A program made the translations under genes and the position numbers. From the NCBI GenBank assembly GCA_965219325.1, contig OZ244723.1:1130158-1194157 (forward strand): 64,000 nt of DNA, written 5' to 3'. Source of the stretch: Dehalococcoidia bacterium (GTDB lineage: Bacteria; Chloroflexota; Dehalococcoidia; Lucifugimonadales; UBA2962). This document shows positions 28,834 through 53,443 of this stretch, in pieces (within the stretch, counting starts at the first letter, position 1; each line of letters opens with the position of its first letter). The notes under the pieces are model-generated. The model made no database searches and was not told the DNA's origin. It worked only from the letters and a program-made list of their open reading frames with translations.

Positions 28834-30479
28834 GCACCGGGAGCCGGTCCCGGGCGATGCTGGCGCTGGCCGAGATGCCCCTGATCGATTGCCCGTCGCT
28901 GGCCGCAGTGTGCGGCATGGCTGAGCGCTCTGCCTACGAGGCCGTCGCCGGTCTCGAGCGGATCGGACTCGCCGCGCACGTCCCGCACACCACGAGCCTC
29001 CTCAACCCGACGCGGCGGTTCCATCTCACCGGCGCGGGGCTGAGGCTGCTGGCGCTGGAGCGGGATATTGCGCTTGACGAGGTGCTCGGGGCATACCCGG
29101 TCTCCCGCGCGTGGCGGCGGATCCTGCTCGAGAGACTCGATGCCGTGGCCGTCATATACAGGCTGGCGGCCGCGATCGCCGGGGAGCAGGGGCCGGTGGG
29201 GCTGCGCTGGTACAGGGCGCTCCCGCTGGACGCCGCGATCGTGCTCCCCGGAGGCCGGCCGGTCGGGGTGGTCAGGCAGGGACCGACCGCAGATCGGACG
29301 GGGTTTGCCAGGCGGCTGTGGAGGCTGCGCGAATTGCCGCGCATGAGTGGGGTACTGGTGCTCGCCTCCGACGAGATGCGTCTGCGCCACTCGATCAGGC
29401 TGCTCGCCGGCACGCCCCTGGTCTCCCTGGTCGCCCTGGAGAGGGACGCCGCAGGGGTGGGGCCGGGTGACCCGGTCTGGAAGCTGCCCTCGACCGCGGC
29501 CGCCATGGACCTTCGGCGCATGCTCTCTCACATCGAGAGGGCCGGTTCGCTTCCGGAGGAGAGGAGACTCTCACGGGCCTCCATGCCCGGGGACATCGCG
29601 GCCGACGGACCCGGGGATGACTTTCCCGCCTGCGTCCTGCCCGCGCTCCTTGGGTCCGCCGAGAAGCGCACGCTCGACATCCTGTTCGACTGGCCCTGGA
29701 TGGCGCAGAAGGACATGGCGGGTCTGCTGGGCGTCTCGGCCGCGCGCGCGTCCCAGCTCACGGCGTCCCTGGAGAGATTCGGCCTGGTCTCCCGCGCTCC
29801 CGACGCGGGTCGCCGCCTGGCGCTCACCGACCGTGGCCTCGGTCTGCTGGTCCGCAGGGACCGCGCGTCCTGGGGCGTTGCCAGGGGACGCTGGAGCATC
29901 TCGCCCGTCGACCCGGGCGAGCCGTTCTCCTGGCGCAATGTGTCCGGGGCCAGGAGCCGGCAGCTGCTCAGGAACCTTGCGCACACGGCAGCGGTACACG
30001 GCTTCATGGCCGCGCTGGCCGGACAGGCCCGGTCGTCCGGCTGGGAGGTGGTGCAGGTCGACCCGCCCACCCGGGCGTCGAGGTACTTCTGGCATGGGGG
30101 AACCCTGCGGTCCGTGCATCCCGACGCGTTCGGCATCCTGCGCAGGGGAGCCGAGACGTGGCCGTTCTTCCTGGAGTGGGAGCGGCGTGCGGTGAGGCCG
30201 GTCACGATGGCGGCGCGGCTCGCGCCCTATGTCCGTTACTACTCGACCCGCCGGCCCATCGACGACCACGGCGTGCGTCCCGCAGTCATGATCGTGTTCG
30301 ACGACGACCTGGCCGCTGCGGGCTTCCTCAGGGTGGCCCGCCGGGAGATCGAGGGGGCCGGGGTTTCGGTGCCCATCCTTGTTTCCGACAGGAGCACTGT
30401 GGACAGACTGGGGCCACTGGGTCCGGCGTGGCGCAAGGTTGGGGAGTGGTCATCCTGCCACGCTCTCCCCGCTGTTTAG
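28830..30479 (+). CDS. Replic_Relax (replication-relaxation) family protein with N-terminal wHTH repeats; putative relaxase
   Basis: ATGA overlap with the coupling-protein gene. C-terminal block ..LAHTAAVHGF...HPDAFGIL......WPFFLEWERR.. is as I know it for the replication-relaxation family. Confidence 0.7.
   Translation: MSTGSRSRAMLALAEMPLIDCPSLAAVCGMAERSAYEAVAGLERIGLAAHVPHTTSLLNPTRRFHLTGAGLRLLALERDIALDEVLGAYPVSRAWRRILLERLDAVAVIYRLAAAIAGEQGPVGLRWYRALPLDAAIVLPGGRPVGVVRQGPTADRTGFARRLWRLRELPRMSGVLVLASDEMRLRHSIRLLAGTPLVSLVALERDAAGVGPGDPVWKLPSTAAAMDLRRMLSHIERAGSLPEERRLSRASMPGDIAADGPGDDFPACVLPALLGSAEKRTLDILFDWPWMAQKDMAGLLGVSAARASQLTASLERFGLVSRAPDAGRRLALTDRGLGLLVRRDRASWGVARGRWSISPVDPGEPFSWRNVSGARSRQLLRNLAHTAAVHGFMAALAGQARSSGWEVVQVDPPTRASRYFWHGGTLRSVHPDAFGILRRGAETWPFFLEWERRAVRPVTMAARLAPYVRYYSTRRPIDDHGVRPAVMIVFDDDLAAAGFLRVARREIEGAGVSVPILVSDRSTVDRLGPLGPAWRKVGEWSSCHALPAV
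29962..30479 (+). repeat. direct repeat copy 1 (3' end of the relaxase gene); diverged copy at 49399..49915
   Basis: Encoded peptides are about 90% identical (..GWEVVQVDPPTRASRYFWHGG.. versus ..GWDVVQVDPPTRASRYFRHGG..). Confidence 0.8.
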
Positions 30480-30483
30480 GCTG

Positions 30484-30894
30484 TCAGCCGGGTATGGAAG
30501 CCACCGCGAGGAGGCCGCCGAGCCGGCTAGGCCCAGAGGCCGCAGGCCCAGGCCCGCCGCCCCGTCTCTGTTCGATTGGGCGCTCAGCCTGGAGCAGGAG
30601 AGGGAGCTGGTCGACGTGCCTGATGATGAACAGGTCGTCAAAGTTGGCCACGCGGAGCACCTGCTGAAGACGCCTCCGCATCTGAGGCGAGGGACTGCGC
30701 TTGCCGGACACAAGGTTGGACATGTAGCCCGACGAGGTGCCGACCAGCCGCGCCAGTGCGTTCTGGGAGATCTCGCGCCGGTCGAGAAGCCGCCACAGGG
30801 CTACGGCGTTCAACACGACGCGCGAGGACTGTTGCCTGCGCTCCTCTCCCGACTCACCGGACTCCGTTGGGAACAGACCGTCGAGTGAGCACAT
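30484..30894 (-). CDS. XRE-family HTH regulator
   Basis: ..LLDRREISQNALARLVGTSSGYMSNLVSGKRSPS..RRRLQQVL...FDDLF. Paralog of 52844..53119. Confidence 0.7.
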   Translation of the reverse strand: MCSLDGLFPTESGESGEERRQQSSRVVLNAVALWRLLDRREISQNALARLVGTSSGYMSNLVSGKRSPSPQMRRRLQQVLRVANFDDLFIIRHVDQLPLLLQAERPIEQRRGGGPGPAASGPSRLGGLLAVASIPG

Positions 30895-30980
30895 ACCATT
30901 TCCCCCTGCACGGCCATGTATGCGGCCCCTTTTTGCGTTTTCGGCCCTGCGGTCGTGGGCGCTGCCTGAGCGCCGACTCC

Positions 30981-31226
30981 CTAGTCGGTGAACAGGTGGG
31001 CGAGGCCCAGGGGTCTCGCCAGGGCCACCAGCGCCATCATGTTCCGCATGCTGGGGCGAGCCCGTCCCTTCCTCCAGCGCCGCAGCGTCTCGTGGTGGAC
31101 GTCGAGACGACGGGCGATCTCCGCCCACGACAGGCCCGACTCCTCCTTGAACCGCTCCAGCCGCTCCGGGAAGTCGTGGGGGACCTGGTAGGTAACTCTG
31201 CTGTGATAAATGCGCTGTCGCGGCAT
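30981..31226 (-). CDS. small HTH protein (81 aa), member of a five-copy family in this window
   Basis: MPRQRIYHS..VPHDFPERLERFKEESGLSWAEIARRLDVHHETLRRWRKG...LGLAHLF. Confidence 0.65.
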   Translation of the reverse strand: MPRQRIYHSRVTYQVPHDFPERLERFKEESGLSWAEIARRLDVHHETLRRWRKGRARPSMRNMMALVALARPLGLAHLFTD

Positions 31227-32306
31227 CGGTCCTTCCGGAAGACGGCTGCAAGCTCCCTCCTACGGGGATGTCCGGGGCCGTCCGATATCCCCAGGCAGGA
31301 CGGTATGCGGAACGCAAGCTCACGCGGTCAGCCCGTCCCGGAGTCCTGTGGGAGGCCGCCGCTCTGCTTGTCGGAGGGCTGGGGCGGCCTCCCCCAGCTT
31401 CATCCATGTGTGCGGGCTTTCTTGTTGCCCTTCCTGCGGGCGGGGTCCGCGCGGGTACGCGTACACCCGCGCGGACCTTCCTCTCCTCCCGACGCCACAT
31501 GCCATCAGGAATTATCCGGCGGATCGGGCCCTTCCACGCATGGCCCCTCACCGAGTTCGTTGACCGCCGCCACACCGAATTTGACGGGTCCCACATAGAC
31601 GATCTTGAAGTATTTGAAACCCGTCGGGGTGCCGTCGGGGTGCTCTGGTGGCGTGGTGGATCCAGGGTGCTCCACCTCGTATTCGTCCAGCAGGTAGCCG
31701 CCGCAGCCCTCGCTGGCTGAGCCGTAGATGCGGAACTCCGTGATCCATTGCGCGCCGGTTCCGGTCTCGTCCGGCGCGTCCCACGACACGATTTGCCCAC
31801 CAATGCCGCTGACGGGCGAGTAGGACACAGACACATTGCGGACCGCGCCCGGGATCTCCGAGGGGCCCAGACCACCGGGCGGAACGGCAACTGCCAGCAA
31901 AATTTCACGCACCGACAGCGTGTAGGTGCCTGGGTCCAAGCCCGCTACTTCCAGGTGGTAGATGCCGGTCGCGGTCGCCGTGTAGGTCAGTCGGCTGTTA
32001 AGTCCCTCGCCGCCGTCGTCGTCCTCACTGATGTAGTGGGAGACGTTGAAGGAGTCGCCGTAGAGCGCCAGGATCGGGTCCGCCTGGGAGCCGCGGCCGG
32101 TGTCCGCGCCCTCCAGGTCGAACCGGTATCGCTTGCCCGCCTCCAGATTGACACGGAACCCGTCCAAATCCTCGCCAGGGTCGATGTTGCCCGTGGCCGA
32201 GGCCCCGACCTCGACCCGGCCGGTGGTGGTGGTGTCTCTGGGAAAGTCCGTGTCGGCCTCCGAGGCGCCGTTCGCGCCCAGCACGATCACCGACAGCGTG
32301 TAGGTG
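31197..32306. repeat. about 1.1-kb near-identical direct repeat, copy 1 (HTH 5' end, 279-bp spacer, last 267 codons of the giant gene)
   Basis: Matches 40309..41418 at a constant offset of 9112 nt, with only a handful of mismatches read by eye. Confidence 0.85.
31444..31477 (-). terminator. 12-bp GC hairpin GGTCCGCGCGGG / CCCGCGCGGACC 30 nt downstream of the giant gene 1 stop; identical copy at 40556..40589
   Basis: Perfect inverted repeat read directly. There is no clear U-tract, so terminator function is uncertain. Confidence 0.4.
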
Positions 32307-35300
32307 CCGGTCATGGTGGCTGTGCCGGCCGCAGCTATGTAGTAGGTCCCGTCCGCCGTGGGCGTGTAGATAACCCGGCCGTTTTTGCCCACACCGCCAT
32401 CGTTGCTCCTCGCATCGGATATCGCCTGTCCTCCCGCATCATACAACCCCCAAAGAAACGGATCCGCCAAGTTGCCTCGGCCGGTATCCGCCCCCTCCAC
32501 GTCGAACTGGTATCGCTTGCCCTTCTTCAGCTCGACCGCGAACCAGTCGACGTCGGCGTCCCTATCGACGTTCCCCGTGACCGAGCCGCCCACCTCGACC
32601 TCGCCGGTGGTGGTGGTGTCGGCGGGCAGGTCTTCGCCGTCGGGCTCCGAGACGTTGGTGGGCAGGTCCGTGGCGCCCTCGGCGACCCCTTGCGCGGGGA
32701 CGGCCGCGCCGCTGACGCTGAACTTCGTATACTCGCCGCTTTCTCCCGACCAATCGCCTAGGTCGGTGTGACTACGGGTTAGCCGCGCACCGGCGACGCT
32801 CCATCCCGTCGAATCGTCGTCAGCGGACCCTGAAGCCGTTACGCGTAGGGTGAGATGCGCCCGAGCGCCGCTGTAGGACTGAACCACAAAGTACGTCGTG
32901 CCGGGGTCCAGTACCGTGCCCCCTGGGGCGTTGAACGTGTTGACGCCGGTGGCCCAGGTATCCGTGGAATGCGTCAGCGTGGCGACCGGGGCGTCGGGCG
33001 TCGGTGGGGAGTCGCTGGTCGCGGACCACAGCGAGACCGTGACGTCGGCCGGGGTTTTGGGGACCGTGTCCACATCCAAGCTGATGCTGGCCAGGAAGTA
33101 TCCGTAGCGATCTGAGCCGGTGGTGAACCCCTGGGCGTTCTCAAAATCGCCAACGATTATTGCAAAATTCAGGTTGTTGGCTTGCCCGAGGTTGGTCAGG
33201 AGGTCGGTGACGGAATCCGGGACATTGCCGGAATCGTCCGGGGGATCGTCGGGCGTCATCTCCGCCGCCCGCGTCACGGTCACCGTGTAGGTCTGCGTCG
33301 AGGTGTCGTCCTCGGCCGTCACCTTCACCTTGATGACGGTGTCGCCCACCTCCAGCGCCACCTGGAAGTCGTCCTCCATGTCGTCCGCGTCGTCGAGCTC
33401 GTTGTCGTCCGTGTCTAGAATCTCGACCGTCGCGCTGGCGTGGTTCGTGGTCGGCGTCACCGTCACCTCGTCGACGCTGTTGGCGACCGACGCCGTGTAG
33501 ATGGCCGTGCCCGAGGCGAAGGCCGGGCTCAGCGTCACCCCCATGCCCAGCGACAGCCCGCTCAGCGTCGCGTCCGTCGAGAGCGCCGTCGCGTCGTCGT
33601 CCTCGATGGTTCCCGTCGCGGTCGGGTCCGTCTCCAGCTTCGCGTTCGACGACGGGCTCGACAGCGTCACCGTGAAGGTCTCGTCGCCCTCCTCGGTGGC
33701 GTCGTTCACCACCGGCACCTCGAACGTTCCCGTCGTGTCGCCGATCGCGACGGTCACCGTCCCCGTCTTCGTCGCCCCGAGGTCCGCCGCGACCGCCGTG
33801 TCGCCGGCCTCGATCGACGCCGTCCAGGTCGCCGTCACGGCCGTCGCGGCCGCTTCCGACAGCGTCACCGTGAACTCCACTTCCCCATCGTTCTCGGCGT
33901 CCGAGGCATCCGCGACGCTCAGCGTCCGCGGGCGCACACGAATCGTGACGGTGTCCCCCGCAGACCAGGTCAGGCCCGACAGACCCCAAGAGTAGAGGCC
34001 GGTGGTGCTTTTCGTGGCACCGCTGAACTCGAATGGGGTGGCGGCGCCGTCGACCGTGAGCAGCAGGCCCGCCTTGTCATCGTCGGTGAGATCGGCGGTG
34101 AGCAAGACGTACAGGGTGCCCGTGGGGGTGGTCCCAGTTGGGACTTGGACGTAAGCGCCTTGGATCGTGTAGTCGTTGTCCCCGACCGAGAACACCGTTT
34201 CGTCAGGGTTGCCGGCAAGGCTGCCCGCGCTGAGGCCAGCTCCATCAGCAAAACCGTGTCCGACAAGCGCGTCGGCGGGGCTGGTCTTGATCTCTGCCAC
34301 CGTCACCGCGCCGCACCAGATGTCGCCGGTGTTCAGCGTGCACGGCGGCGGCTGCGTGATTTCACGCACCGACAGCGTGTAGGTGCCAGTAGTGGGGGCC
34401 GCGGTCTCGACAACCAGGTAGTAGGCGCCGGCCGCGGTCGGCGTGAAGACCAACTGGCTGTTTAGGTTCGCGGTGCTGATGTCGTCGTCTTCAGCAAGTT
34501 TGTTACTTCCAGACGCGTCGAAGATCTGTAGGAACGGGTCTCCCAGGGAGCCGCGGCCGGTCGGCGAACCCTCCAGGTCGAACTGGTAGGTCTTGCCGGC
34601 CTCCAGATCGACGCGGAACCAGTCTTTATCCGATGTGCTGGCGATGTTGCCCGTGGCCGAGGCCCCGACCTCGACGCGGCCAGAGGTCGTGTTGTCGGCG
34701 GGAAAGTCCGTGTCGGCCTCCGAGGCGCCGTTCGCGCCCAGCACGATCACCGACACCGTGTAGGTGCCGGTATCACTGGTTGCTGAGTCCGCGACCACGT
34801 AGTAGGTGCCGGTCGCCGTGGGCGTGTTGATAATCCGGGCGTTCTTGCCCACGCCCGCGTCATCGTTACCACTAATCAGGCTAGTCGCGTAGAGGCTTGC
34901 GGCCGGGTCCGGCAAGGTGCCGCGCCCGGTATCCGCCCCCTCCACGTCGAACTGGTATCTCGTGCCCGCCTCCAGTTCGACCTTGAACCAGTCTTTGTCC
35001 GTGCTAGGTTTGATGGCGCCCGTGACCGAGCCGCCCACCTCGACCTCGCCGGTGGTGGTGTTGTCGTTGGGAAAGTCGTCGCGCGTCACGGTCACCGTGT
35101 AGGTCTGCGTCGCGGTGCTGTCCTCGGCCGTCACCTTCACCTTGATGACGGTGTCGCCCACCGACAGCGCCACCTGGAAGTCGTCCTCCATGTCGTCCGC
35201 GTCGTCGAGCTCGTTGTCGTCCGTGTCCAGAATCTCGACCGTCGCGCTGGCGTGGTTCGTCGTCGGCGTCACCGTCACCTCGTCGACGCTGTTGGCGACC

Positions 35301-40249: not shown

Positions 40250-40338
40250 GGTTCCTCCTTGAACCGCACCAGCCGCTCAGGAAAGTCGGCTGGGAAGCCA
40301 GGGGGTCTTCTGCTGTGATAAATGCGCTGTCGCGGCAT
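40246..40338 (-). pseudogene. 30-codon 5' fragment of the small HTH gene, fused to and overlapping the giant gene 1 start
   Basis: MPRQRIYHSRRPPGFPADFPERLVRFKEEP*. Its AAGGAGGAA codons double as the RBS of the ATG at 40249. Confidence 0.7.
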
Positions 40339-41418: not shown

Positions 41419-44400
41419 CCCGTCGTGCTGTCTGCGCCGGCCACAGCTATGTAGTAGGTGCCTTCCGCGTCGGGCGTGTTGATGACCCGGCCGTTCTTCC
41501 CCACACCGCCGTCGTTACTCCTCGCACCGGAGACCGCCTGTCCTCCCGCATCCTGCAACCCCCAAAGATGCGGATCCGCCAAGTTGCCTCGGCCGGTATC
41601 CGCCCCCTCCACGTCGAACTGGTATCGCTTGCCCTTCTTCAGCTCGACCGCGAACCAGTCGACGTCGAGAGCTGGGGCGATTTCGCCCGTGACCGAACCG
41701 CCGACCTCAACTCTACCGGTGGTGGTGATGCCTTCGGGCAGGTCTTCGCCGTCGGGCTCCGAGACGTTGGTGGAATCGGCTGGCGGGTCGGCGGAATCGT
41801 CGGGCGGCGGCGTGATGTCGCGCACCGACAGCGTGTAGGTGCCGGTGTCGGTTTCATCAAAATCTGCCACACGTAGGTAGTACGTGCCAGCCGTGGTCGG
41901 AGTGAATATCCCCCGGCTGTTCGCACCAATACCGCTGTTGACATCATCCAGAAGGTTGTCCTCGGACTCGTCGTAGAGTGTTAGCGCCGGGTCCGCCAGG
42001 GTACCGCGGCCGGTCGGCGCCCCCTCCAGGTCGATCTGGTAGCGCGTGCCCGCCTCCAGGACGACGCGGAAATAGTCTCGGTCGGCGAAGGAGCCGATGT
42101 TGCCCGTGACCGAGGCCCCGACGTCGACCCGGCCGGTGGTGGCGGTGGTGGCGGGCAGGTCCGTGTCGGCCTCCGAGACGCCGTTCGCGCCCAGCACGAT
42201 CACCGACAGCGTGTAGGTGCCTGTCACGCCGTTCGAGGAGGCGACTACGTAGTGAGAGCCGTCCGCGGGCGCCGTGAAGATCCTCCGGGCGTTGTTCCCT
42301 ATGCCGCTGTCAAGCGCGTCGGTGACTACATTGCCCAACGCATCGCGCATCCTGCTAAGAACCGGGTCTGTCAGGGTGCCCCGGTTGGTGTCCGCGCCCT
42401 CCAGGTCGATCTGGTATCGCTTGTCCTTCTTCAGATCGACGCGGAACCAGTCAATGTCGAAGACGCTGTCCATGTTGCCCGTGACCGAGCCGCCGACGTC
42501 GACCTGGCCGGTGGTGGTGTTGTCGGAGGGAAAGTCGTCGGGCGTCGTCGACCCCGACAGACGGACCGTGACCGTGGTCGTCGACGACCAGTCCAGGCCC
42601 GTATTCGCCCAAGAGTAGAGGCCGGTGCTCAATCTACTGGCATCGCTGAGCGCGCGGTCGGTAGTGACGCCGTCGATCTTGAAAACCAGGTTCTCCTTGT
42701 CATCGTCGGAGAGATCGGCGGTGAGCAATAAGAACAGGGAGCCATCGTTGTTGCCCCCTGGGGCTCCGACATAAAGGCCCCTGATCGTGTAGTCGTTGTC
42801 CCCGACCGAGAACATCGTGTCGCCGGGGTTGCCGACAAGACCGCCCGCGCTGAGACTACTGGTATCCGCAAACCCGTGTGAGACAAGCACGTCGGCGCTA
42901 GTCTTGAGCTCTCCCACCGTCACCACGCCGCACCAGAGGTCGCCGATGTTCAGCGTGCACGGTGGCGGGATCTCACGCACCGACAGCGTGTAGGTGCCCG
43001 TCCCCCCGGTCTCTGTCGTACTCGGTTCCAAGGTGTAGGTGCCGGTCGTGGTCGGCGTGTAGACTATCTGACTGTTTTTGTTCGTGCTGCTGATGTTCTC
43101 GTTGAACCCCACGACCGTTACGAATCGGTAGAGTTTTAGGTACGGATTCTCCAGGGTGCCGCGGCCGTTATGCGATCCTTCCAGGTCGAACTGGTAGGTC
43201 TTGCCCGCCTCCAGAGCGACATTGAACAAGTCCGTATCGCCGTTGAACCCGATCGTCCCCGTGACCGAGGCCCCGACGTCGACAGTGCTAACGTTGGTGT
43301 TGGAAAAGTCCGTGTCGGCCTCCGAGGCGCCGTTCGCGCCCAGCACGATCACCGACAGCGTGTAGGTGCCCGTCACGCCGTTCGAGGCGGCGACTACGTA
43401 GTGAGTGCCGTCCGCGGTCGCCGTGAAGATCGTCCGGGCGTTGTTCCCCACGCCGCTGTCATCGTTCTGCGTGCCCGTGATCGTATTGCCCCCCGCATCA
43501 CGCACTGCGTTGATAGTCGGGTCCGACACTGTGCCGCGGCCGGTAGGCGCACCCTCCAGGTCGATCTGGTATCGCGTGGTCTCCTCCAGCTCGACGAGGA
43601 ACCAGTCCGCGTCGCCGACGGACTCGATGTTGCCCGTGACCGAGCCGCCGATGTCGACCTTGCCGGTGGTGGTGGTGCCGGCGGGAAAGTCGTCGGGCGG
43701 CGACAGACGAACCGTAACCGTGGTCGTCGCAGACCAGTCCAGGCCCGACAGACCCCAAGAGTAGAGGCCGGTGGTGCCTTTCGTGGCGCCGCTGAACGCG
43801 AACGTGAGGGTGGTGTCGTCGACCGTGAGCACCAGGCCCGCCTTGTCATCCTCGCTGAGATCGGCGCTGAGCAAGACGTACAGGGTGCCCGTGACGGTGG
43901 ACCCAGTTGGGACTTGGATATAAGCGGCACTGATCGTGTAGTCGTTGTCCCCGACCGAGAACATCGTGTCGTCAGGGTAGCCGGCAAGGCTGCCCGCGCT
44001 GAGGCCAGCTCCATCAGCAAAACCGTGTGCGACAAGCACGTCGGCGTTAGTCTTGACCTCTGCCACCGTCACCACGCCGCACCAGACGTCGCCCGTGTTC
44101 AGCGTACACGGCGGCGGCGTGATGTCACGCACCGACAGCGTGTAGGTGCCGGCCGCGCTATTCGAGGCTGCCACCAGGTAGTAGACGCCGGCCGCGGTCG
44201 GCGTGAAGGTTATCTGGCTTTCGTAGATGTCGTTGTCCGGATCGACGTCGTCATTCTCGGTGCCGCTAATCGCGTTGCCGGATGAGTTGCGGATATTGAG
44301 CAGATAAGGGTCTTCCAAGGTGCCGCCGCCGCTATCTTCGCCCTTCTGGTCGATCTGGTAGGTCTTGCCCGCCTCCAGATCGACCTTGAACCAGTCCGCG

Positions 44401-45662
44401 TCGGTATCGGGGTCGATGTTGCCCGTGACCGAGCCGCCCACGTCCACCTCGCCGATGGTGGCGGTGGTGGCGGGAAAGTCCGTGTCGGCCTCCGAGGCGC
44501 CGTTCGCGCCCAGCAGGATCACCGACAGCGTGTAGGTGCCGGTATCTGACCCATTGGCATTCTGTGCCCGCACGTAGTAGGCGCCGGCCGCGGTCGGCGT
44601 GTAAATCCGCCGGGCGTTTTTGCCCACGCCCTCGTCGTTGCTCAAAGAACCGACAACTGCGTTGCTATAGTAGAGAGCCATCCTCGGGTCCGGTAGGGTA
44701 CCGCGGCTGGTATCCGCACCTTCAAGATCGATCTGGTATCTCGTGCCCGCCTCCAGCACGACCTTGAACCAGTCCCCGTCCGTCCCGGTTCCGATGTTGC
44801 CCGTGACCGAGCCGCCGACGTCCACCTCGCCGGTGGTGGTGTCGTCGGTCGGCAGGTCTTCGCCGTCGGGCTCGGAGACGTTGGCCCGCTTGCCGGGACC
44901 GCCGGGCGCGCCGTCGTCGTCCTCCCCGTCCTGGTCGTCGCCTTCGACGGCCTCCGGCGCGGCCGGCGTGTCGATGTGGAACCAGCGGGAGCGCTCGCTC
45001 ACACCGTGCTCGTTGATCGCCTTGATGCGGTAGGTGTAGGTAGTATTGGCCTGTACGCTGTCGTCGGTGTAGGTGGTCGCCGCCGCCCCCGTGTCCGCCA
45101 CCAGCACACTGAACTCGCCCCCGGTATCGTTCACGCGGACGCGCCGCAGGATGACGTAGCCGGTGATGGTGTCGTCGTCAGGGTCGTCCCAGGTGAGGAC
45201 CACCTGGTCGTGGGTCGCCGTGGCGTCCAGGCCCGTGGGCTTGTCGGGCCGCTCGGGGGCCGCCGGAATGTCGATGTGGGACCAGCGCGAGCGTTCGCTC
45301 ACCCCGTGCTCGTTGATCGCCTTGATGCGGTAGGTGTAGGTAGTGTTGGCCTTTACGGTAGCGTCGGTGTAGGTGGTCGCCGCTGTGCCCGTGTCCGCCA
45401 CGAGCTCACTGAACTCGCCCCCGGTATTGTTCACGCGCACGCGCCGCAGGATGACGTAGCCGGTGATGCTGGCGTCGCCCGGGTCGTCCCAGGTGAGGAC
45501 CACCTGGTCGTGGGTCGCCGTGGCGGAGAGGCCCGTGGGCTTGTCGGGCACCGAGCCCTCCTGGGCCTGGACCGGAGAGAACAGCAGGGTCATCGCCAGG
45601 GCCAGCGCCGCTATGGCGGCAATCAGGATGGGGAATCGTCGTCTATCGGTGCGAGTCATCAT
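40617..45662 (-). CDS. giant secreted repeat protein (1681 aa): signal peptide, 2 FN3-like domains, 8 PPC-type repeats in 4 pairs, two copies of the CTLNxGDxWCG domain, C-terminal FN3-like domain
   Basis: The first roughly 270 aa and last roughly 270 aa are highly similar or near-identical to giant protein 1. It has the same RBS context, AAGGAGGAACCATGATG. Confidence 0.9.
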   Translation of the reverse strand: MMTRTDRRRFPILIAAIAALALAMTLLFSPVQAQEGSVPDKPTGLSATATHDQVVLTWDDPGDASITGYVILRRVRVNNTGGEFSELVADTGTAATTYTDATVKANTTYTYRIKAINEHGVSERSRWSHIDIPAAPERPDKPTGLDATATHDQVVLTWDDPDDDTITGYVILRRVRVNDTGGEFSVLVADTGAAATTYTDDSVQANTTYTYRIKAINEHGVSERSRWFHIDTPAAPEAVEGDDQDGEDDDGAPGGPGKRANVSEPDGEDLPTDDTTTGEVDVGGSVTGNIGTGTDGDWFKVVLEAGTRYQIDLEGADTSRGTLPDPRMALYYSNAVVGSLSNDEGVGKNARRIYTPTAAGAYYVRAQNANGSDTGTYTLSVILLGANGASEADTDFPATTATIGEVDVGGSVTGNIDPDTDADWFKVDLEAGKTYQIDQKGEDSGGGTLEDPYLLNIRNSSGNAISGTENDDVDPDNDIYESQITFTPTAAGVYYLVAASNSAAGTYTLSVRDITPPPCTLNTGDVWCGVVTVAEVKTNADVLVAHGFADGAGLSAGSLAGYPDDTMFSVGDNDYTISAAYIQVPTGSTVTGTLYVLLSADLSEDDKAGLVLTVDDTTLTFAFSGATKGTTGLYSWGLSGLDWSATTTVTVRLSPPDDFPAGTTTTGKVDIGGSVTGNIESVGDADWFLVELEETTRYQIDLEGAPTGRGTVSDPTINAVRDAGGNTITGTQNDDSGVGNNARTIFTATADGTHYVVAASNGVTGTYTLSVIVLGANGASEADTDFSNTNVSTVDVGASVTGTIGFNGDTDLFNVALEAGKTYQFDLEGSHNGRGTLENPYLKLYRFVTVVGFNENISSTNKNSQIVYTPTTTGTYTLEPSTTETGGTGTYTLSVREIPPPCTLNIGDLWCGVVTVGELKTSADVLVSHGFADTSSLSAGGLVGNPGDTMFSVGDNDYTIRGLYVGAPGGNNDGSLFLLLTADLSDDDKENLVFKIDGVTTDRALSDASRLSTGLYSWANTGLDWSSTTTVTVRLSGSTTPDDFPSDNTTTGQVDVGGSVTGNMDSVFDIDWFRVDLKKDKRYQIDLEGADTNRGTLTDPVLSRMRDALGNVVTDALDSGIGNNARRIFTAPADGSHYVVASSNGVTGTYTLSVIVLGANGVSEADTDLPATTATTGRVDVGASVTGNIGSFADRDYFRVVLEAGTRYQIDLEGAPTGRGTLADPALTLYDESEDNLLDDVNSGIGANSRGIFTPTTAGTYYLRVADFDETDTGTYTLSVRDITPPPDDSADPPADSTNVSEPDGEDLPEGITTTGRVEVGGSVTGEIAPALDVDWFAVELKKGKRYQFDVEGADTGRGNLADPHLWGLQDAGGQAVSGARSNDGGVGKNGRVINTPDAEGTYYIAVAGADSTTGTYTLSVIVLGANGASEADTDFPRDTTTTGRVEVGASATGNIDPGEDLDGFRVDLEAGKRYRFDLEGADTGRGSQADPILALYGDSFNVSDYISEDDDGGEGLNSRLTYTATATGIYHLEVAGLDPGTYTLSVREILLAVAVPPGGLGPSEIPGAVRNVSVSYSPVSGIGGQIVSWDAPDETGTGAQWITEFRIYGSASEGCGGYLLDEYEVEHPGSTTPPEHPDGTPTGFKYFKIVYVGPVKFGVAAVNELGEGPCVEGPDPPDNS

Positions 45663-45923
45663 GGTTCCTCCTTGTGCTTGTGCGGGGATACGGGACGCAG
45701 CCCGTCCCGTCCCCAGGCGTCAGCGGACGCGGAGGACGCGGGCGTCGGGCGTTGCATGGTCGAAGGCTGTTTCGGGTGAGTGCGGGACGTGCGAAGCCCG
45801 CCGCAAGGCGTCCTTCAAGGACACTGAGAACTTCGGGCGCACGCAGAGAGAGCGGCGATGGGAGAGGATCGGGCCTGCCGGTATGAGCCGGAGGCGGCGA
45901 GGGGGCCAGAGCGGAGGGAAATC

Positions 45924-45936
45924 GGGGGGGGGGGGG
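45924..45936. repeat. homopolymeric G13 (C13 on the minus strand) tract in the divergent intergenic region
   Basis: Read directly. Lies 262 nt upstream of the giant gene 2 ATG and 324 nt upstream of the kinase-regulator ATG. Confidence 0.9.
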
Positions 45937-46139
45937 TGAACGTCTGTGCTAGACCGCGACGGAGGACGGACCGGGTCGCGGAGACCACGTCAACACGGGC
46001 CGCTGCGACCAGTTTCTCCACTCCGTCTATCGGCCTGTCGAATCCCACGTTAAACCCTCCCCGCCGTACGTTGGGGCAAAGTGCCCATCAGTATGACGGA
46101 CAAAGTTGTGGAAAGTCAGTGTAATATCTGCATTTTAGC

Positions 46140-46158
46140 GACCAATCGAGGACCAATC
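46140..46158 (+). promoter_or_regulatory. direct repeat GACCAATC-N3-GACCAATC (11-bp phasing), candidate OmpR/PhoB-type response-regulator box
   Basis: Two perfect 8-mers at 46140-46147 and 46151-46158, 4 nt upstream of a -35-like hexamer. Confidence 0.4.
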
Positions 46159-46162
46159 CTGC

Positions 46163-46192
46163 TTGTGTAATGTGCCGTATGGCCTCTATAAT
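46163..46192 (+). promoter_or_regulatory. sigma-70-like promoter candidate for 46260..48641
   Basis: TTGTGT (46163-46168), an 18-nt spacer, then TATAAT (46187-46192), about 68 nt upstream of the ATG. Confidence 0.4.
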
Positions 46193-46259
46193 GGGCGCGC
46201 CGGGCCGTGTGGGACTAGGGGGGCCGCGGGCCGTCCATGCCTGAACGGAGGTCGAGAGG

Positions 46260-48641
46260 ATGAAGAACGCCGGGGAGCTTGAGCGGGAGAACGAGGCCCT
46301 TCGCGACCGCCTCTCCAGGCTGAGCCAGGCCAGCCTGCGCATCAACGAGAGCCTGGACTTCGATGGCGTCCTTCAGGAGGTGGTGGACAGCGCCCGCGCC
46401 ATCACGGACGCCCGCTTCGGAGGGCTCACCACCGTGGACGGCTCGGGGCAGCTGGAGAGTTTCCTGAGCTCCGGCCTGACGCCCGAGCAACACGAGGCGC
46501 TGTACACCCCGGAGGGTCCGGCCATCTACGACCTCTTCCTGAATATGAAAGAGCCGCTGCGAGTCGACGACCTCACCGCCTACGTCAAGTCACTCGGCTA
46601 CCCCGGCAACTCGGCGTATCTGAAGAGCTTTCTGGGGACGCCGATCCTGCATCGCGGCGTGCCCGTTGGCCTGTGCTGTGTCGCCAACAAAGAGGGTGGG
46701 GGCGGGTTCACCCCCGAGGACGAGGCGACCCTGGTGATGTTCGCCTCCCAGGCGGCGCTGGTCATCGCCAACGCCCGCAGGCACCGGGAGGAGCAGCGGG
46801 CCAGGACCGACCTGGAGACCCTGGTGAACACCACACCTGTGGGCGTCTTGGTGTTCGACGCCAAGACGGGCGGCGTGACGTCGGTCAACCGGGAGGCCAG
46901 GAGGATCGTCAGCGACCTGTGTGCGCCCGGCGGCTCGGCGGAGCAGCTGCTGGAGGTGCTGACCTTCCGGCGGTTCGACGGGAGGGATGTCTCTCTGGAG
47001 GAGTTCCCCCTGGCCCTGGCGCTGAGCACGGGGGAGACGGTGCGAGCGGAGGAGATCGTCCTGCAGGGTCCCGAGGGTCGCAGCGTCACCACCCTGATCA
47101 ACGCCACGCCCATCTTCTCCGAGGAGGGCGAGGTCGAGTCGGTGGTCGTGACCCTACAGGACATGACGCCGATGGAGGAGCTTGAGCGGCTGCGGGCCGA
47201 GTTCCTGGGCATGGTGAGCCACGAGTTGCGGACGCCCCTGGCCGCCGTCAAGGGATCGGTGGATACCCTTCTGGAATCCGCCTCCGACCTGGACTCTGCC
47301 GAGATGACGCAGTTCTTCAGGATCATCCGCGACCAGTCGGAGAACATGCGTTACCTGATAGGCGACCTGCTGGACGTGGCCCGCATCGAGACGGGCACCC
47401 TGCCGGTTTCCCCCGAACCCGTAGAGGCGGGCGTCCTGGTGGACGAGGCCAGGAGCAGGTTCCAGAGCGGGGGCGGAAGGAGCAACCTCGTTATCGACCT
47501 GCCGCCGGATCTGCCCCGGGTCATGGCGGACCGGCGGCGCATCGTCCAGGCACTGGGCAACCTGCTCTCCAACGCGGCCCACCACTCGAACGAACTGTCC
47601 CCCATCCGGGTGGCCGCAGTGCGGGATGGCGTCCACGTCGCCTTCTCGGTGGCGGACGACGGCGTGGGCGTGCCCGCCGAGCGGCTGCCGCACCTGTTCC
47701 GCAAGTTCTCCCGGCTCGACGGCGAGGAGCGGGGACGTGAGATAGCCGGGTCGGGCCTGGGACTCGCCATCTGCAAGGGGATCGTGGAGGCCCACGGCGG
47801 CCGCATTCGGGCCGAGAGCGACGGGCTTGGTCTGGGAAGCCGGTTCACCTTCACCGTTCCGGCGGTGGAGGAGGCCGTCGCCCTTCCCCCTCCACGGTCA
47901 CGCCGGCGCAGGAGCAAGACCGCGGAGCGGCCCCGCGTCCTGTGCGTGGACGACGACCCGCAGACGCTCCGGTACGTGCGGGACGCCCTCACCAAGGCGG
48001 GCTACACGCCCGTCGTGACCGGAGACCCGGAGGAGGTCTCCCGGCTCATGGCGGAGGAAGCGCCCCGCCTGGTCCTGCTGGACATGATGCTGCCGGGCAG
48101 CGACGGCATGGAGCTGATGAAGGACATCCGGGAAGTCTCCGACGTGCCGGTCATCTTCCTGTCCGTCAACGGCCAGGAGGAGGTCGTCGCCCGGGCCTTC
48201 GACATGGGAGCGGCCGACTACGTGGTCAAGCCCTTCTCGCCGACGGAGCTTGCGGCCAGGATCAGGGCGGCCCTGCGCAAGCTGCGCAAGCGCGCGGCGC
48301 CGGAGCTGGCCCAGCCCTCCGAGCCCTACGTGCGTGGAGACCTGACCATCGACTATGCCCAGCGCAGGGTTACGGTGGCCGGCCGCCCGGTCGAGCTCAC
48401 CTACACCGAGTACCGGATGCTGGTCGAGCTTTCGGTGAACGCGGGGCGGGCGCTGACCCACGTGCACCTGCTGCAACGGGTCTGGGGACCGGACAAGGGC
48501 GAAGACACCGGGCCGGTGAGGAACATCGTCAAGAGGCTGCGCCGCAAGCTGGGCGAGGACGCGTCCAACCCGGCCTTCATCTTCGCCGTGCCCAGGGTCG
48601 GCTATCGGATGGAGAAGGGGGAGGGGCAGGAGGATGCGTGA
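46260..48641 (+). CDS. single-polypeptide two-component system: coiled coil, GAF, PAS, HisKA, HATPase_c, REC, OmpR/PhoB-type winged-helix DNA-binding domain
   Basis: H-box FLGMVSHELRTPL, N-box LGNLLSNAAHH, G-boxes VADDGVGV and GSGLGLAICKGIVEAHGG. REC: VLCVDDD...LVLLDMMLPGSDG...KPF. wHTH: ELTYTEYRMLVEL...VRNIVKRLRRKL...VGYRM. No TM segment seen. Confidence 0.9.
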   Translation: MKNAGELERENEALRDRLSRLSQASLRINESLDFDGVLQEVVDSARAITDARFGGLTTVDGSGQLESFLSSGLTPEQHEALYTPEGPAIYDLFLNMKEPLRVDDLTAYVKSLGYPGNSAYLKSFLGTPILHRGVPVGLCCVANKEGGGGFTPEDEATLVMFASQAALVIANARRHREEQRARTDLETLVNTTPVGVLVFDAKTGGVTSVNREARRIVSDLCAPGGSAEQLLEVLTFRRFDGRDVSLEEFPLALALSTGETVRAEEIVLQGPEGRSVTTLINATPIFSEEGEVESVVVTLQDMTPMEELERLRAEFLGMVSHELRTPLAAVKGSVDTLLESASDLDSAEMTQFFRIIRDQSENMRYLIGDLLDVARIETGTLPVSPEPVEAGVLVDEARSRFQSGGGRSNLVIDLPPDLPRVMADRRRIVQALGNLLSNAAHHSNELSPIRVAAVRDGVHVAFSVADDGVGVPAERLPHLFRKFSRLDGEERGREIAGSGLGLAICKGIVEAHGGRIRAESDGLGLGSRFTFTVPAVEEAVALPPPRSRRRRSKTAERPRVLCVDDDPQTLRYVRDALTKAGYTPVVTGDPEEVSRLMAEEAPRLVLLDMMLPGSDGMELMKDIREVSDVPVIFLSVNGQEEVVARAFDMGAADYVVKPFSPTELAARIRAALRKLRKRAAPELAQPSEPYVRGDLTIDYAQRRVTVAGRPVELTYTEYRMLVELSVNAGRALTHVHLLQRVWGPDKGEDTGPVRNIVKRLRRKLGEDASNPAFIFAVPRVGYRMEKGEGQEDA

Positions 48642-49099
48642 CAGAGCCGAAAGAGGAAACGGAGCCACTGTGTTCCCTCTTTGCGGCCCTCAGCCCTGTC
48701 ACGCCATAATAGTCAAGCCCCGGTTAGGCTCCGGGCTTTGGTAGGTGCCCCGAGCCACATCTCGAAGATAGTGCCATCTACCGTCCACTTAGGCCCACCT
48801 ATGGGGACTCGAACCGCATTTCATCCACGGCGAGCTACCCCACAACGACCAAGGATCCTCCCTAACTTGCCAAATGGTCTACGACCGCAAAGTGCCAACG
48901 GCGATGAGACGCCCGTATTGGGGAAACTCTGCAAGCTGATAGGCAACAAGCTCAAAGACCGCAGTCGGTTTGCCACCAAATCCCTTTTGGCCCAGTAGCT
49001 AACTCATTTGACTCGTGTTGAGCGTCGTCATGAGATGCTCCCGCCGGGTTGAACTATCTTAGGCCGAGATGAATATCGAGATCGGAGGAATCACTACCC

Positions 49100-49390
49100 A
49101 TGCCACAGTTCACTACGACAACTCTGGAAGAAGCGCAGAGGCTCACGGGCGGCGGAAAGAGGGAGAAGGAACTGGCCGCATACCTTGAGAGCGTCAACGG
49201 CCTGTCCGCTGGAACTGCGGGCAAAGTGGTCCCGTCGGAGGGCGAGAGCCTATCGACGGTGAGGCGCAGGCTGGGCGACGCTGTGCGCAGGTCGGGTCGG
49301 GACATCGAGATAAGACGAACGGATGACGCCGTCCATTTCTGGATCAAGGAGGGGCGTCGCCGGGGTCGCCCGAGGTCCCGTCGCGAATAG
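49100..49390 (+). CDS. small AT-hook-like DNA-binding protein (96 aa), copy 1
   Basis: ATG after GGAGGAA. C-terminus RRRGRPRSRRE (RGRP core). About 90% identical to 51508..51798. Confidence 0.6.
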   Translation: MPQFTTTTLEEAQRLTGGGKREKELAAYLESVNGLSAGTAGKVVPSEGESLSTVRRRLGDAVRRSGRDIEIRRTDDAVHFWIKEGRRRGRPRSRRE

Positions 49391-49398
49391 AGCCGCCA

Positions 49399-49915
49399 AC
49401 TGCCAAGGAACCTTGCGCACACGACGGCGGTAGACGGTTTCGTCGCGGCGCTGGCCGTGCAGGCCCGATCGACCGGCTGGGATGTGGTGCAAGTCGACCC
49501 TCCCACCCGTGCGTCCAGGTACTTTCGGCACGGGGGGATCCTGCGGTCCGTGCACCCGGACGCGTTCTGCATCCTGCGCAGGGGAGCCGTGACGTGGCCG
49601 TTCTTCCTGGAGTGGGAGCGGCGAGCGGTACGGCCGGTCACCATGGCGGCGCGGCTCGCGCCCTACGTGCGTTACTACTCGACCCGCCGTCCCATCGACG
49701 ACCACGGCGTGCGGCCCACGGTTATGATCGTGTTCGACGACGACCTGGCCGCCGCGGGCTTTCTTCGGGTGGCCCGCCGGGAGATGGAGAGGGCCCGGGC
49801 TGTGGTACCCCTCCTTGTCTCGGACAGGGGAACGGTGCACAGGCTGGGGCCGCTGGGACCGGCGTGGCGCAAGGCTGGGGAGTGGTCGTCCTGCCATGCT
49901 CTACCCGCGGCCTGA
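49399..49915 (+). pseudogene. 3' fragment (last roughly 170 codons) of a second, diverged Replic_Relax relaxase gene
   Basis: ..RNLAHTTAVDGFVAALAVQARSTGWDVVQVDPPTRASRYF... is collinear with residues about 378-549 of 28830..30479. It has no N-terminal part and starts directly after the stop of 49100..49390. Confidence 0.75.
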
Positions 49916-49918
49916 GCA

Positions 49919-51301: not shown

Positions 51302-51507
51302 CTGTCGAAGATCTCAAGTTAAATCCGAATTCAGCCGTTTCTTGAAGGCTTCACTTCACTCACCTAAGTGTAAGGCAGTCTTTAATCATCTCTCTGTTTC
51401 TCGGGTAGCATGGCAGGTGGCCATCTGGAATCTCTTCCCGGTAGTCTCGAGGTCTTGTACAACGTACGCTCCGATACCTCATAATCTGATTGGAGGAACC
51501 ACTAACG

Positions 51508-51798: not shown

Positions 51799-51938
51799 AA
51801 CCACCGGCTTCTCGTCCTAACGTGGGTGGCATTCCGGGCGGGTAGCCCGGGCGAGGGTAGGGGCTGGACGACTATAGTTCTCTTGCCGCTGGCCGGTTCA
51901 CCCGTCCCGCCGATGGGCATTGCGGCCAGCCGTTCGCG

Positions 51939-53439: not shown

Positions 53440-53443
53440 CAGC

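What the first reader, a model, noticed from the sequence alone, without database searches (positions are those of the whole stretch)
29945..49915. Diverged ~520-bp direct repeats of the relaxase 3' end bracket the 19-kb giant-gene/regulator cargo
The last ~170 codons of the Replic_Relax gene (to 30479) recur at 49399-49915 with about 90% peptide identity. The second copy has no N-terminal part and starts immediately after the stop of an unrelated small gene. The XRE/HTH pair, both giant genes, the fused two-component gene and an AT-hook gene all lie between the two copies. Because the copies are diverged, this is not a recent duplication. It fits better with tandem accretion or recombination between two related elements. 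Homologous recombination between the repeats could still delete or exchange the whole cargo block as a unit.
Basis: partly seen in the sequence, partly recalled or inferred. Interest (0 to 1): 0.7.

Follow-up and report, generated by a model that had tools for sequence, protein, structure and literature searches.

The report
Recombination scar stacking two ICE cargoes
A half-kilobase leftover of a second relaxase gene, joined directly to a duplicated small gene, shows that two related conjugative elements of an uncultured Dehalococcoidia bacterium merged their cargo regions into one element; this is an ordinary kind of mobile-element evolution, here preserved unusually cleanly.

Summary
The repeat is real. 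Window 29954-30479 and 49390-49915 align without gaps at 87.5% nt identity and 87% aa identity over 174 codons. This is a 96-aa gene with its ribosome-binding site, at 49080-49397 and again at 51488-51805.

Close relatives all show one order: T4SS genes, coupling protein, relaxase, variable cargo, 96-aa gene, ImmA/XRE regulators, recombinase. The window carries two such cargo slots in series. Slot 1 (30480-49079) holds the giant genes and the regulators. Slot 2 (49916-51487) holds a PIN gene. The slots meet at one non-homologous joint, 49390-49397.

The partial copy did not arise from its neighbour. It is closest to another element's relaxase, and the two window copies are never sisters in 1000 bootstraps. 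Its dN/dS of 0.19 matches that of intact genes, so it was part of a working relaxase until recently. It now lacks a start codon and shows an excess of private amino-acid changes.

The best reading is recombination between two related ICEs, by tandem accretion plus deletion or an equivalent route. Three other loci carry similar relics. This is a new member of a known kind, of modest interest.

The parts
23912..26194 (+). VirB4/TraC-like T4SS ATPase gene (conserved ICE backbone)
   Evidence: Pfam P-loop_TraG, AAA_10, DUF87. Collinear at 80-87% nt with relatives L001, L002, L004, L006.
25807..28833 (+). Type IV coupling protein gene. This is the longest ORF; relatives-864 aa, so the true start is probably near 26.2 kb.
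   Evidence: Pfam TrwB_AAD_bind. Gene calls in L001, L002 and L004.
28830..30479 (+). Intact relaxase gene R1 (549 aa, Replic_Relax = MOBC class)
   Evidence: PF13814 at 37.9 bits against a cut-off of 25.3. More than 2768 homologues of about 550 aa. PF13814 is equated with MobC in PMC5357655.
29954..30479 (+). Repeat copy 1: the last 174 codons plus stop of R1
30480..49079 (.). Cargo slot 1 (18.6 kb): small HTH genes, two giant surface-protein genes, the sensor kinase-response regulator fusion gene
   Evidence: Homology to every close relative stops at 30466-30481 and resumes only at the small gene. Pfam annotations.
30981..31226 (-). XRE-type HTH gene at the left edge of slot 1
   Evidence: Pfam HTH_31/HTH_3.
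31505..40249 (-). Giant gene 1 (2914 aa; fn3, cadherin-like, PPC, Calx-beta repeats)
40617..45662 (-). Giant gene 2 (1681 aa; fn3, PPC repeats), a paralogue of giant gene 1
   Evidence: Repeats 31141-32661 / 40253-41773 (95.7%) and 38694-40261 / 44116-45674 (80%).
46260..48641 (+). GAF-PAS-HisKA-HATPase-REC-OmpR fusion gene (793 aa)
   Evidence: Homologues at 57-59% aa in the cargo of L005 and L061.
49080..49397 (+). Small-gene repeat copy a (S_a): ribosome-binding site plus the 96-aa gene at 49100-49390. This is the right border of slot 1.
   Evidence: 318 bp, 87.4% to 51488-51805. dS 0.43, dN/dS 0.10. GGAGGA lies 8 nt before the ATG. Orthologues sit in L001, L004, L006, L007, L093 and L094.
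49390..49397 (.). Non-homologous joint. The S_a homology ends and the relaxase-tail homology begins here, with about 8 bp of imperfect microhomology (AGxCCxCC).
   Evidence: Three-way comparison.
49390..49915 (+). Repeat copy 2: relaxase tail fragment (codons 376-549 of a second relaxase). It has no start codon or SD and is probably a young pseudogene fragment. It is the left border of slot 2.
   Evidence: PF13814 profile positions 91-189 only. Nearest relative is L006. Private changes are 7 non-synonymous to 1 synonymous, against 37:47 in relatives, Fisher p = 0.026. No SD is visible in the sequence.
49916..51487 (.). Cargo slot 2 (1.6 kb): PIN-domain gene at 49919-51301 (-), with low G+C (54%)
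   Evidence: Pfam PIN_4. G+C. An 81%-identical copy of exactly 49916-51374 lies in an unrelated defence-like context in L088.
51488..51805 (+). Small-gene repeat copy b (S_b; gene at 51508-51798). This is the right border of slot 2 and the start of the conserved right arm.
   Evidence: Collinear with relatives from 51393-51503 onward.
51968..55044 (.). Conserved right arm: ImmA-like gene (-), XRE (-) at 52367-52744, XRE (+) at 52844-53119, small genes, PAPS_reduct-like gene at 54205-55044
   Evidence: 80-89% nt to L001, L004, L006, L007. Pfam.
55252..56865 (+). Large serine recombinase gene (presumed integrase at the right end of the element)
   Evidence: Pfam Resolvase + Recombinase + Zn_ribbon_recom. 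Hits in 52 places in the family loci, nearly all 1.1-8 kb downstream of the relaxase.

Best explanation
The window holds one integrative conjugative element (ICE) of a family common in Dehalococcoidia genomes. In this family the stop codon of the relaxase gene (R) and the ribosome-binding site of a conserved 96-aa gene (S) are the fixed borders of a variable cargo slot. The window element carries two such slots in series: R1 | cargo 1 (regulators, two giant surface-protein genes, sensor-regulator fusion) | S_a | tail of R2 | cargo 2 (PIN) | S_b | right arm | serine recombinase. It arose when two related elements, about 12.5% diverged, were joined. One element (E1) contributed R1, cargo 1 and S_a. 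The other (E2) contributed the R2 tail, PIN and S_b; the lineage of the right arm could not be assigned. One joint is non-homologous, linking the end of S_a to codon 376 of R2 at 49390-49397. The second event was homologous recombination or deletion in the shared backbone. A tandem E1-E2 array followed by an illegitimate deletion would give this product. So would Campbell-type insertion of a circular fragment. Sequence alone cannot separate these routes. The R2 tail is a non-expressed relic that has begun to decay. The practical consequence, which is inferred, is that the two staggered repeat pairs allow two alternative deletions. R1 x R2-tail removes cargo 1 and S_a. S_a x S_b removes the R2 tail and PIN. 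Each deletion restores a canonical single-slot element with an intact, in-frame chimeric gene.
For: Shown. The two repeats, their ungapped alignments and the sharp joint. Equal synonymous divergence of the two repeat pairs, dS 0.40 and 0.43, with dN/dS 0.16 and 0.10. The canonical order R | cargo | S | ImmA/XRE in L001, L004, L006, L007 and L094, with different cargo in each (256-aa gene, HD protein, AAA_14/DUF4143, 179-aa gene; CRISPR-Cas I-E follows R in L002), and homology breaking exactly at the R stop and just upstream of S. Copy 2 is nearest to L006 and copy 1 to L005; the W1+L005 split has 100% bootstrap support and W1+W2 has 0%. dN/dS of copy 2 against relatives is 0.19, against 0.16 among intact genes. 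Copy 2 has an excess of private non-synonymous changes, 7:1 against 37:47, p = 0.026. No SD or start codon precedes the tail. Several related elements occur per genome: four in OZ244718.1, two back to back in L024, and relaxase P0010 sits on a contig of the same length as the one carrying the window's PIN protein. Similar relaxase-3' relics in direct orientation lie downstream of an intact relaxase in L093 (after its S gene, at a different junction, decayed), in L030 (decayed) and in L089 (174 bp, 88%). The relaxase-to-recombinase distance is 1.1-8 kb in the family loci that carry a recombinase hit, against 24.8 kb here. Inferred: the order of events, the tandem intermediate and the deletion potential.
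Against: No parental element was recovered. None of the 93 related loci has PIN next to a relaxase. The closest relative of R1 (L005, 95%) carries a different cargo with only a 57%-identical sensor-regulator gene in the opposite orientation. No relic att site or second recombinase marks a former tandem array, though this was not searched for systematically. Apart from the W1-L005 pair, the clade tree is nearly star-like, so the placement of copy 2 with L006/L001 is weak (21-35% bootstrap). The lineage of the right arm (E1 or E2) could not be assigned. The joint rests on a single assembly, and I could not inspect reads.
Confidence: 0.75

Rival explanations
1. In-place tandem duplication of the segment [relaxase tail - cargo - small gene] within a single element (unequal crossing-over or over-length conjugative replication), followed by long divergence and replacement of one cargo.
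For: A tandem duplication of the slot would give the same topology, including an S|R-tail joint and equal divergence of both repeat pairs.
Against: Copy 2 would have been non-coding throughout its divergence, yet dN/dS is 0.16-0.19, the same as between intact orthologues. Copy 1 is much closer to L005 than to copy 2, and W1+W2 is never recovered in 1000 bootstraps. The two slots share no cargo.
Confidence: 0.07
2. The tail is a working gene: a stand-alone C-terminal nuclease half of the MOBC relaxase. It keeps the HPD...LEWE residues that could be the DEE metal-binding motif. It would be made from an internal GTG (49457), or as a fusion with the AT-hook-like small protein by read-through of the in-frame TAG.
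For: 174 codons without a stop or frameshift, low pairwise dN/dS, and retained candidate catalytic residues. The small gene and the tail are in the same frame, separated by a single TAG. MOBC relaxases use a DEE motif and resemble PD-(D/E)XK enzymes (PMC6736028).
Against: No SD or ATG. The private substitutions are mostly non-synonymous and hit otherwise invariant positions, including G->C two residues after the candidate catalytic D. The N-terminal 375 residues, including the MarR-like winged helix, are missing. The equivalent relics in L093 and L030 are riddled with stops and indels. None of 51 homologues of the small protein is fused to PF13814. Open frames are long by chance at 65-70% G+C.
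Confidence: 0.08
3. Assembly artefact: the assembler or a chimeric read joined two ICE variants from co-existing strains.
For: The source is a metagenome-assembled genome. Related elements are abundant in the same sample series.
Against: Assemblers mis-join at shared sequence, but this joint links two unrelated sequences with at most 8 bp of imperfect microhomology. Independent contigs from other samples (L093, L089, L030) show the same kind of relic.
Confidence: 0.05

Closest known systems
SXT/R391 ICE hybrids and their variable-DNA hotspots (tandem arrays resolved by RecA or by the ICE's own Bet/Exo; reviewed in PMC5812530)
   Same: Related ICEs meet in one cell and recombine into a mosaic. 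Cargo sits in fixed slots between conserved backbone genes. The window element also encodes its own Rad52/22-family annealing protein at 14318-15082.
   Different: SXT/R391 hybrids form by crossovers at homologous positions and leave no duplicated gene fragments. Here one joint is non-homologous and leaves a relaxase tail plus a second copy of the small gene, so two cargoes of the same slot are stacked rather than exchanged. No role of the Rad52-like protein was tested.
Site-specific tandem accretion of ICESt1/ICESt3-type elements and CIMEs in Streptococcus (Pavlovic 2004 and Bellanger 2011, as cited in PMC5812530)
   Same: Composite elements are built from two related elements side by side, followed by deletions that leave non-autonomous remnants.
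   Different: In accretion the joint is an att site made by the integrase. Here no internal att site or second recombinase was seen, and the joint lies inside a relaxase gene.
MOBC relaxases (TraX of pAD1, MobC of CloDF13; Pfam Replic_Relax PF13814)
   Same: The intact 549-aa protein passes the PF13814 threshold. It has the candidate D...E.E residues in its C-terminal third, and it lies directly after a T4SS coupling-protein gene.
   Different: It is about twice as long as the Pfam domain, with a long N-terminal extension that carries a MarR-like motif. No member of this Dehalococcoidia family has been studied experimentally as far as I could find. Its oriT is unknown.

Membership tests
T4SS-type integrative conjugative element (ICE) | VirB4-type ATPase and type IV coupling protein | tested here: met
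   Pfam P-loop_TraG/AAA_10 at 23912-26194 and TrwB_AAD_bind at 25807-28833. TrbL_3 and a T4SS pilin lie upstream in relatives.
T4SS-type integrative conjugative element (ICE) | Relaxase | tested here: met
   PF13814 at 37.9 bits against a cut-off of 25.3.
T4SS-type integrative conjugative element (ICE) | Integrase or recombinase at one end | tested here: met
   A large serine recombinase at 55252-56865, with hits at the same relative position in the family loci (52 places).
T4SS-type integrative conjugative element (ICE) | Defined att sites, excision and transfer | not testable with these tools
   The boundaries were not mapped. No empty site or circular form was available.
Hybrid or composite ICE from two related parents | Segments of two distinguishable lineages in one element | tested here: met
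   Copy 1 groups with L005 (100% bootstrap). Copy 2 is nearest to L006. W1+W2 is recovered in 0% of bootstraps.
Hybrid or composite ICE from two related parents | Related elements co-resident in one genome | tested here: inconclusive
   This is common in the family: four copies in OZ244718.1 and back-to-back copies in L024. For the source genome the only evidence is that P0010 (63% relaxase) and P0121 (100% PIN) lie on contigs of identical length, 3,247,277 bp.
Hybrid or composite ICE from two related parents | Crossovers at homologous positions (SXT/R391-type hybrids) | tested here: not met
   The joint at 49390-49397 links the end of the small gene to relaxase codon 376, with only about 8 bp of imperfect microhomology.
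Hybrid or composite ICE from two related parents | Internal att site or second integrase left from a tandem array (accretion) | not tested
   The self-comparison shows no second recombinase gene between 30 and 55 kb, but short att relics were not searched for.
ICE variable-region hotspot | The same two conserved flanks with unrelated content in different relatives | tested here: met
   The slot from the relaxase stop to the small-gene RBS holds different genes in L001, L004, L006, L007, L093 and L094.
Functional truncated relaxase paralogue | Translation signals, and conservation of the short form in relatives | tested here: not met
   No SD or ATG. The relics in L093 and L030 carry stops and indels. 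There is an excess of private non-synonymous changes.

The most novel reading that the evidence does not exclude
The relaxase 3' third and the 96-aa gene may act as standing homology arms of a cargo-exchange and cargo-stacking system. In that case inter-element recombination at this slot, possibly promoted by the element's own Rad52-family annealing protein, would be a regular way for these Dehalococcoidia ICEs to gain and shed cargo. The relaxase-tail relics (4 of 94 loci) would be its footprints. The two staggered repeat pairs would make the stacked cargoes individually removable.
Probability: 0.2. Interest if true: 0.5.

Novelty: new member of a known kind. Interest (0 to 1): 0.3.

Why it matters
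The structure is a clean, datable record of how a conjugative element in an uncultured soil or sediment lineage (Dehalococcoidia) acquired about 19 kb of surface-protein and regulatory genes in addition to a PIN gene. It defines the cargo slot of a large ICE family (more than 2700 relaxase homologues) that I did not find described, to the nucleotide: from the relaxase stop codon to the ribosome-binding site of the small gene. This helps in annotating cargo in these genomes. It also predicts two specific deletion variants that can be looked for in long-read data. It does not reveal a new mechanism.

Tried and rejected
1. Search for a parent with PIN directly after a relaxase. There were no PIN hits in 87 related loci. 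The 79%-identical PIN protein (L088) lies between ScoMcrA_N and DUF7662/Vsr genes, not in an ICE.

2. Exact look-ups of the window's relaxase, its small protein and the 100% PIN match. None is on record, so the source contig could not be read beyond the window.

3. The metagenome scan with the relaxase gave only four distant loci. The genome scan gave 80 loci at no more than 61% identity.

4. Hypothesis that the relic's left edge marks a nic site or oriT inside the relaxase gene (the end of an incoming T-strand). The relic edges differ between loci (nt 1125, about 1006, about 1258, about 1447). There is no extra nucleotide conservation around nt 950-1100 and no notable inverted repeat in either tail. 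I dropped this idea for lack of support.

5. Hypothesis that the window and L093 share one ancestral S|R-tail module. The L093 relic is equidistant (74-76%) from all clade members, including copy 2, and its junction is about 100 nt further from the small gene. The two are treated as independent.

6. Assigning S_a and S_b to lineages. Nucleotide and protein identities are all within 83-93% and are not decisive.

7. NCBIfam and PADLOC gave nothing for the small protein, the PIN protein or the tail. Promoter and terminator scans were at chance level.
Full report
OBSERVATION

A self-comparison of the window finds 29954-30472 and 49390-49908 aligned over 519 bp without gaps at 87.5% identity (E = 0). 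In the reading frame of the 549-aa gene at 28830-30479, codons 376-549 match 49391-49912 at 87.4% amino-acid identity. The similarity starts abruptly and ends at the two stop codons. Pfam places the intact protein in Replic_Relax (PF13814, above the curated threshold). The fragment matches only the C-terminal half of that domain. PF13814 corresponds to the MOBC relaxase class (PMC5357655).

- an XRE gene;
- two giant genes of 2914 and 1681 aa with fn3, cadherin-like, PPC and Calx-beta repeats;
- a GAF-PAS-kinase-receiver-OmpR fusion gene.

A second direct repeat of the same divergence lies at 49080-49397 and 51488-51805 (318 bp, 87.4%). It covers the ribosome-binding site and the whole of a 96-aa gene (S). 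Both copies of S are intact (dS 0.43, dN/dS 0.10).

The two repeats overlap by 8 bp at 49390-49397. Up to that point the sequence follows the S_b locus. From that point it follows the relaxase. Only an imperfect AGxCCxCC is shared. The segment 49080-49915 is therefore a mosaic: S_a, its TAG stop, and then, in the same frame, the relaxase tail.

CONTEXT

The window is an integrative conjugative element. Its annotated genes are:

| Position | Gene |
|---|---|
| 6-10 kb | helicase and methyltransferase |
| 11-17 kb | RadC, Rad52/22-family protein, primase |
| 23912-26194 | VirB4-like ATPase |
| 25807-28833 | coupling protein |
| 28830-30479 | relaxase |
| 55252-56865 | large serine recombinase |

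No tRNA gene is present.

The relaxase has more than 2768 homologues of about 550 aa. Eighty genomic loci were retrieved, nearly all in Dehalococcoidia/Chloroflexota MAGs, and several genomes carry more than one copy (four in OZ244718.1).

COMPARATIVE ANATOMY

Eight close relatives (80-95% relaxase identity) were read in context: L001, L002, L004-L007, L093 and L094. They share TrbL, pilin, VirB4, coupling protein and relaxase at 80-95% nt identity with the window. The homology stops at 30459-30481, at or within about 20 nt of the relaxase stop codon. It resumes 0-30 nt upstream of S (95 nt in L001) and continues through an ImmA-like gene, XRE genes and a PAPS_reduct-like gene.

What lies between the relaxase and S differs in every relative:
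- a 256-aa gene in L001;
- an HD-domain protein in L004;
- AAA_14/DUF4143 in L006;
- a 179-aa gene in L007;
- NYN and OGG genes in L093;
- a full type I-E CRISPR-Cas system directly after the relaxase in L002.

The interval from the relaxase stop to the S ribosome-binding site is therefore a cargo slot with fixed borders. The window has two such slots in series. Slot 1 is 30480-49079 (18.6 kb) and slot 2 is 49916-51487 (the PIN gene, G+C 54%). The PIN module is itself mobile. Exactly 49916-51374 recurs at 81% identity in L088 between ScoMcrA_N and DUF7662/Vsr genes.

Across the wider family the recombinase gene lies 1.1-8 kb after the relaxase (52 hits). In the window the distance is 24.8 kb.

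ORIGIN OF COPY 2

If copy 2 had been duplicated in place, it should be closest to copy 1 and should have evolved without constraint. Neither holds.
- Copy 2 is closest to the relaxase of L006 (89.5% nt, dS 0.29), against 86.7% and dS 0.40 to copy 1.
- Copy 1 is closest to L005 (91.4% nt, dS 0.23).
- In 1000 neighbour-joining bootstraps, copy 1 + L005 is recovered every time and copy 1 + copy 2 never.
- dN/dS of copy 2 against the seven other sequences (copy 1 and six relatives) averages 0.19, against 0.16 among the seven intact genes. Nearly all of its divergence therefore accrued while it was part of a working gene in another element.

Copy 2 also shows signs of recent release from constraint.
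- Its private substitutions, at sites invariant in the seven other sequences, are 7 non-synonymous to 1 synonymous, against 37:47 pooled for the others (Fisher p = 0.026).
- They include G->C two residues after the D of the HPD motif, which I take to belong to the MOBC DEE site (PMC6736028). This is an inference from the sequence.
- Nothing resembling a start codon with an SD precedes it, whereas S_a has GGAGGA 8 nt before its ATG.

The equal dS of the two repeat pairs fits two parents about 12.5% apart. E1 gave R1, cargo 1 and S_a. E2 gave the R2 tail, PIN and S_b; the right arm could not be assigned to either parent.

MECHANISM

Shown: one non-homologous joint, with flanking homology to two lineages.

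Inferred: the route. Two routes give the same product.
- E1 and E2 sat in tandem. Tandem arrays of related ICEs and their resolution into hybrids are documented for SXT/R391, and site-specific accretion is documented for ICESt1/3 (PMC5812530). An illegitimate deletion then removed E1's right arm, the att junction and E2's left arm up to codon 376.
- A circular fragment with an S|R-tail joint inserted by a single homologous crossover.

Stacking two cargoes of the same slot necessarily places an S-side remnant next to an R-side remnant. Long duplicated backbone would be collapsed by homologous recombination, so short relics are what should survive.

This matches the other cases found.
- L093 has S, then about 100 nt, then a decayed relaxase relic (nt about 1006-1564; 74-76% identity to every clade member; in-frame stops), followed by DndB-family cargo.
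- L030 has a frameshifted relic of residues 420-539, located 2.3 kb after its intact relaxase.
- L089 repeats the last 174 bp of its relaxase at 88% identity, 0.65 kb downstream.

That makes 4 of 94 loci, each with a different left edge. In addition, the mismatch density between R1 and L005 triples (2.9% to 9.0%) near relaxase nt 1047-1160, at about the repeat's left edge at nt 1125 (likelihood ratio 25). The relaxase 3' third has therefore served as a recombination arm more than once.

CONSEQUENCES (INFERRED)

Both repeat alignments are ungapped and in frame. Recombination between R1 and the tail would delete 19,436 bp (cargo 1 plus S_a) and leave an intact chimeric relaxase followed by PIN. 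Recombination between S_a and S_b would delete 2,408 bp (the tail plus PIN) and leave a canonical element carrying cargo 1. The longest identical runs are 33, 29 and 23 bp in the relaxase repeat and 29 bp in the S repeat, so such events should be rare. The element's Rad52/22-family protein might promote them, as Bet/Exo does in SXT, but this was not tested.

RIVALS
- In-place duplication is disfavoured by the tree and by dN/dS.
- A functional short relaxase, or an S-tail read-through fusion, is disfavoured by the missing translation signals, the private changes, the decayed relics elsewhere, and the absence of any S-PF13814 fusion among 51 S homologues.
- An assembly artefact is unlikely because the joint links unrelated sequences and independent contigs show similar relics. 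I could not check reads.

VERDICT

It needs one refinement: the structure is a pair of stacked cargo slots with two staggered repeat pairs, not a single bracketed block. It is a new member of a known kind, a composite ICE made by recombination between related elements. It is of modest interest, chiefly as a precise definition of the cargo slot in a large ICE family of Dehalococcoidia that I did not find described.

Noticed in passing
window 31141-32661 vs 40253-41773; 31197-31496 vs 40309-40608; 38694-40261 vs 44116-45674: The two giant genes are tandem paralogues with a period of 9112 bp. Their 3' ends plus about 365 bp downstream are 95.7% identical, and a 300-bp stretch is 100% identical. 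Their 5' ends are 80% identical. The perfectly identical stretch suggests recent gene conversion, or a conserved element downstream of each gene (an ORF of 117 aa at 31210-31563 / 40322-40675 has no Pfam hit).
   Followed up: partly
L093 6824-7756: A close relative from another sample has the small gene followed, about 100 nt later, by a decayed relaxase 3' relic (nt about 1006-1564, 74-76% identity, in-frame stops). DndB-family cargo follows, before the ImmA gene. This is the same kind of scar as in the window, at a different junction.
   Followed up: yes
L089 11447-11620 vs 12271-12443; L030 13950-14305: Two more distant family members carry direct-repeat relics of the relaxase 3' end downstream of the intact gene. 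L089 has 174 bp at 88%, with one ORF between. L030 has a frameshifted relic of residues 420-539.
   Followed up: partly
L002 13837-21650: In one close relative the slot directly after the relaxase holds a complete type I-E CRISPR-Cas system (Cas3, Cse1, Cse2, Cas7, Cas5, Cas6e, Cas1, Cas2). This would be an ICE-borne CRISPR-Cas system in Dehalococcoidia.
   Followed up: no
window 28830-30479 vs L005 2450-4099: The mismatch density between the window relaxase and its 95% relative jumps from 2.9% to 9.0% near nt 1047-1160 of the gene (maximum-likelihood change point 1159, LR 25), close to the repeat's left edge at nt 1125. One of the two lineages has replaced its relaxase 3' third by recombination.
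   Followed up: partly
window 57886-58102 vs L005 4230-4445: The sequence about 130 nt after the relaxase stop in L005 is 75% identical to a window segment beyond the recombinase and phosphotriesterase genes, next to an IS (DDE_5 transposase at 58128-59543). This is unexplained. It might be an element-end or IS-associated sequence.
   Followed up: no
window 30628-31226 vs 52907-53605: The small HTH genes at the left edge of cargo 1 are about 50% identical at the protein level to the HTH genes of the conserved right arm, but lie on the opposite strand. Several distant family loci match 30625-30842 at 69-76% nt. Cargo 1 may begin with a fragment of a third element's regulatory module.
   Followed up: no
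L024 10001-19351; L012 17682-19187; L081 12907-14289: Some genomes have two elements of the family back to back (L024: relaxase, PAPS-like gene and recombinase, then an inverted recombinase and relaxase). Others have a second, 30-33% identical, full-length relaxase just downstream of the first.
   Followed up: no
window 51968-52360 (-): The ImmA-like gene of the right arm is 130 aa and fails the Pfam Peptidase_M78 model. Its 142-aa orthologues in L001, L004, L006 and L007 pass. It may be damaged in the window element.
   Followed up: no
window 55252-56865 and 56826-57782: The serine recombinase ORF overlaps the start of a phosphotriesterase-family ORF by 40 nt. This may mark the right attachment site within or next to that gene. 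The element boundaries were not mapped.
   Followed up: no
window 49100-49390 and 51508-51798: The conserved 96-aa slot-border protein ends in GRRRGRPRSRRE, an AT-hook-like RGRP core. It has only 51 homologues, all about 96 aa, and no Pfam, NCBIfam or PADLOC match. Its function is unknown.
   Followed up: partly
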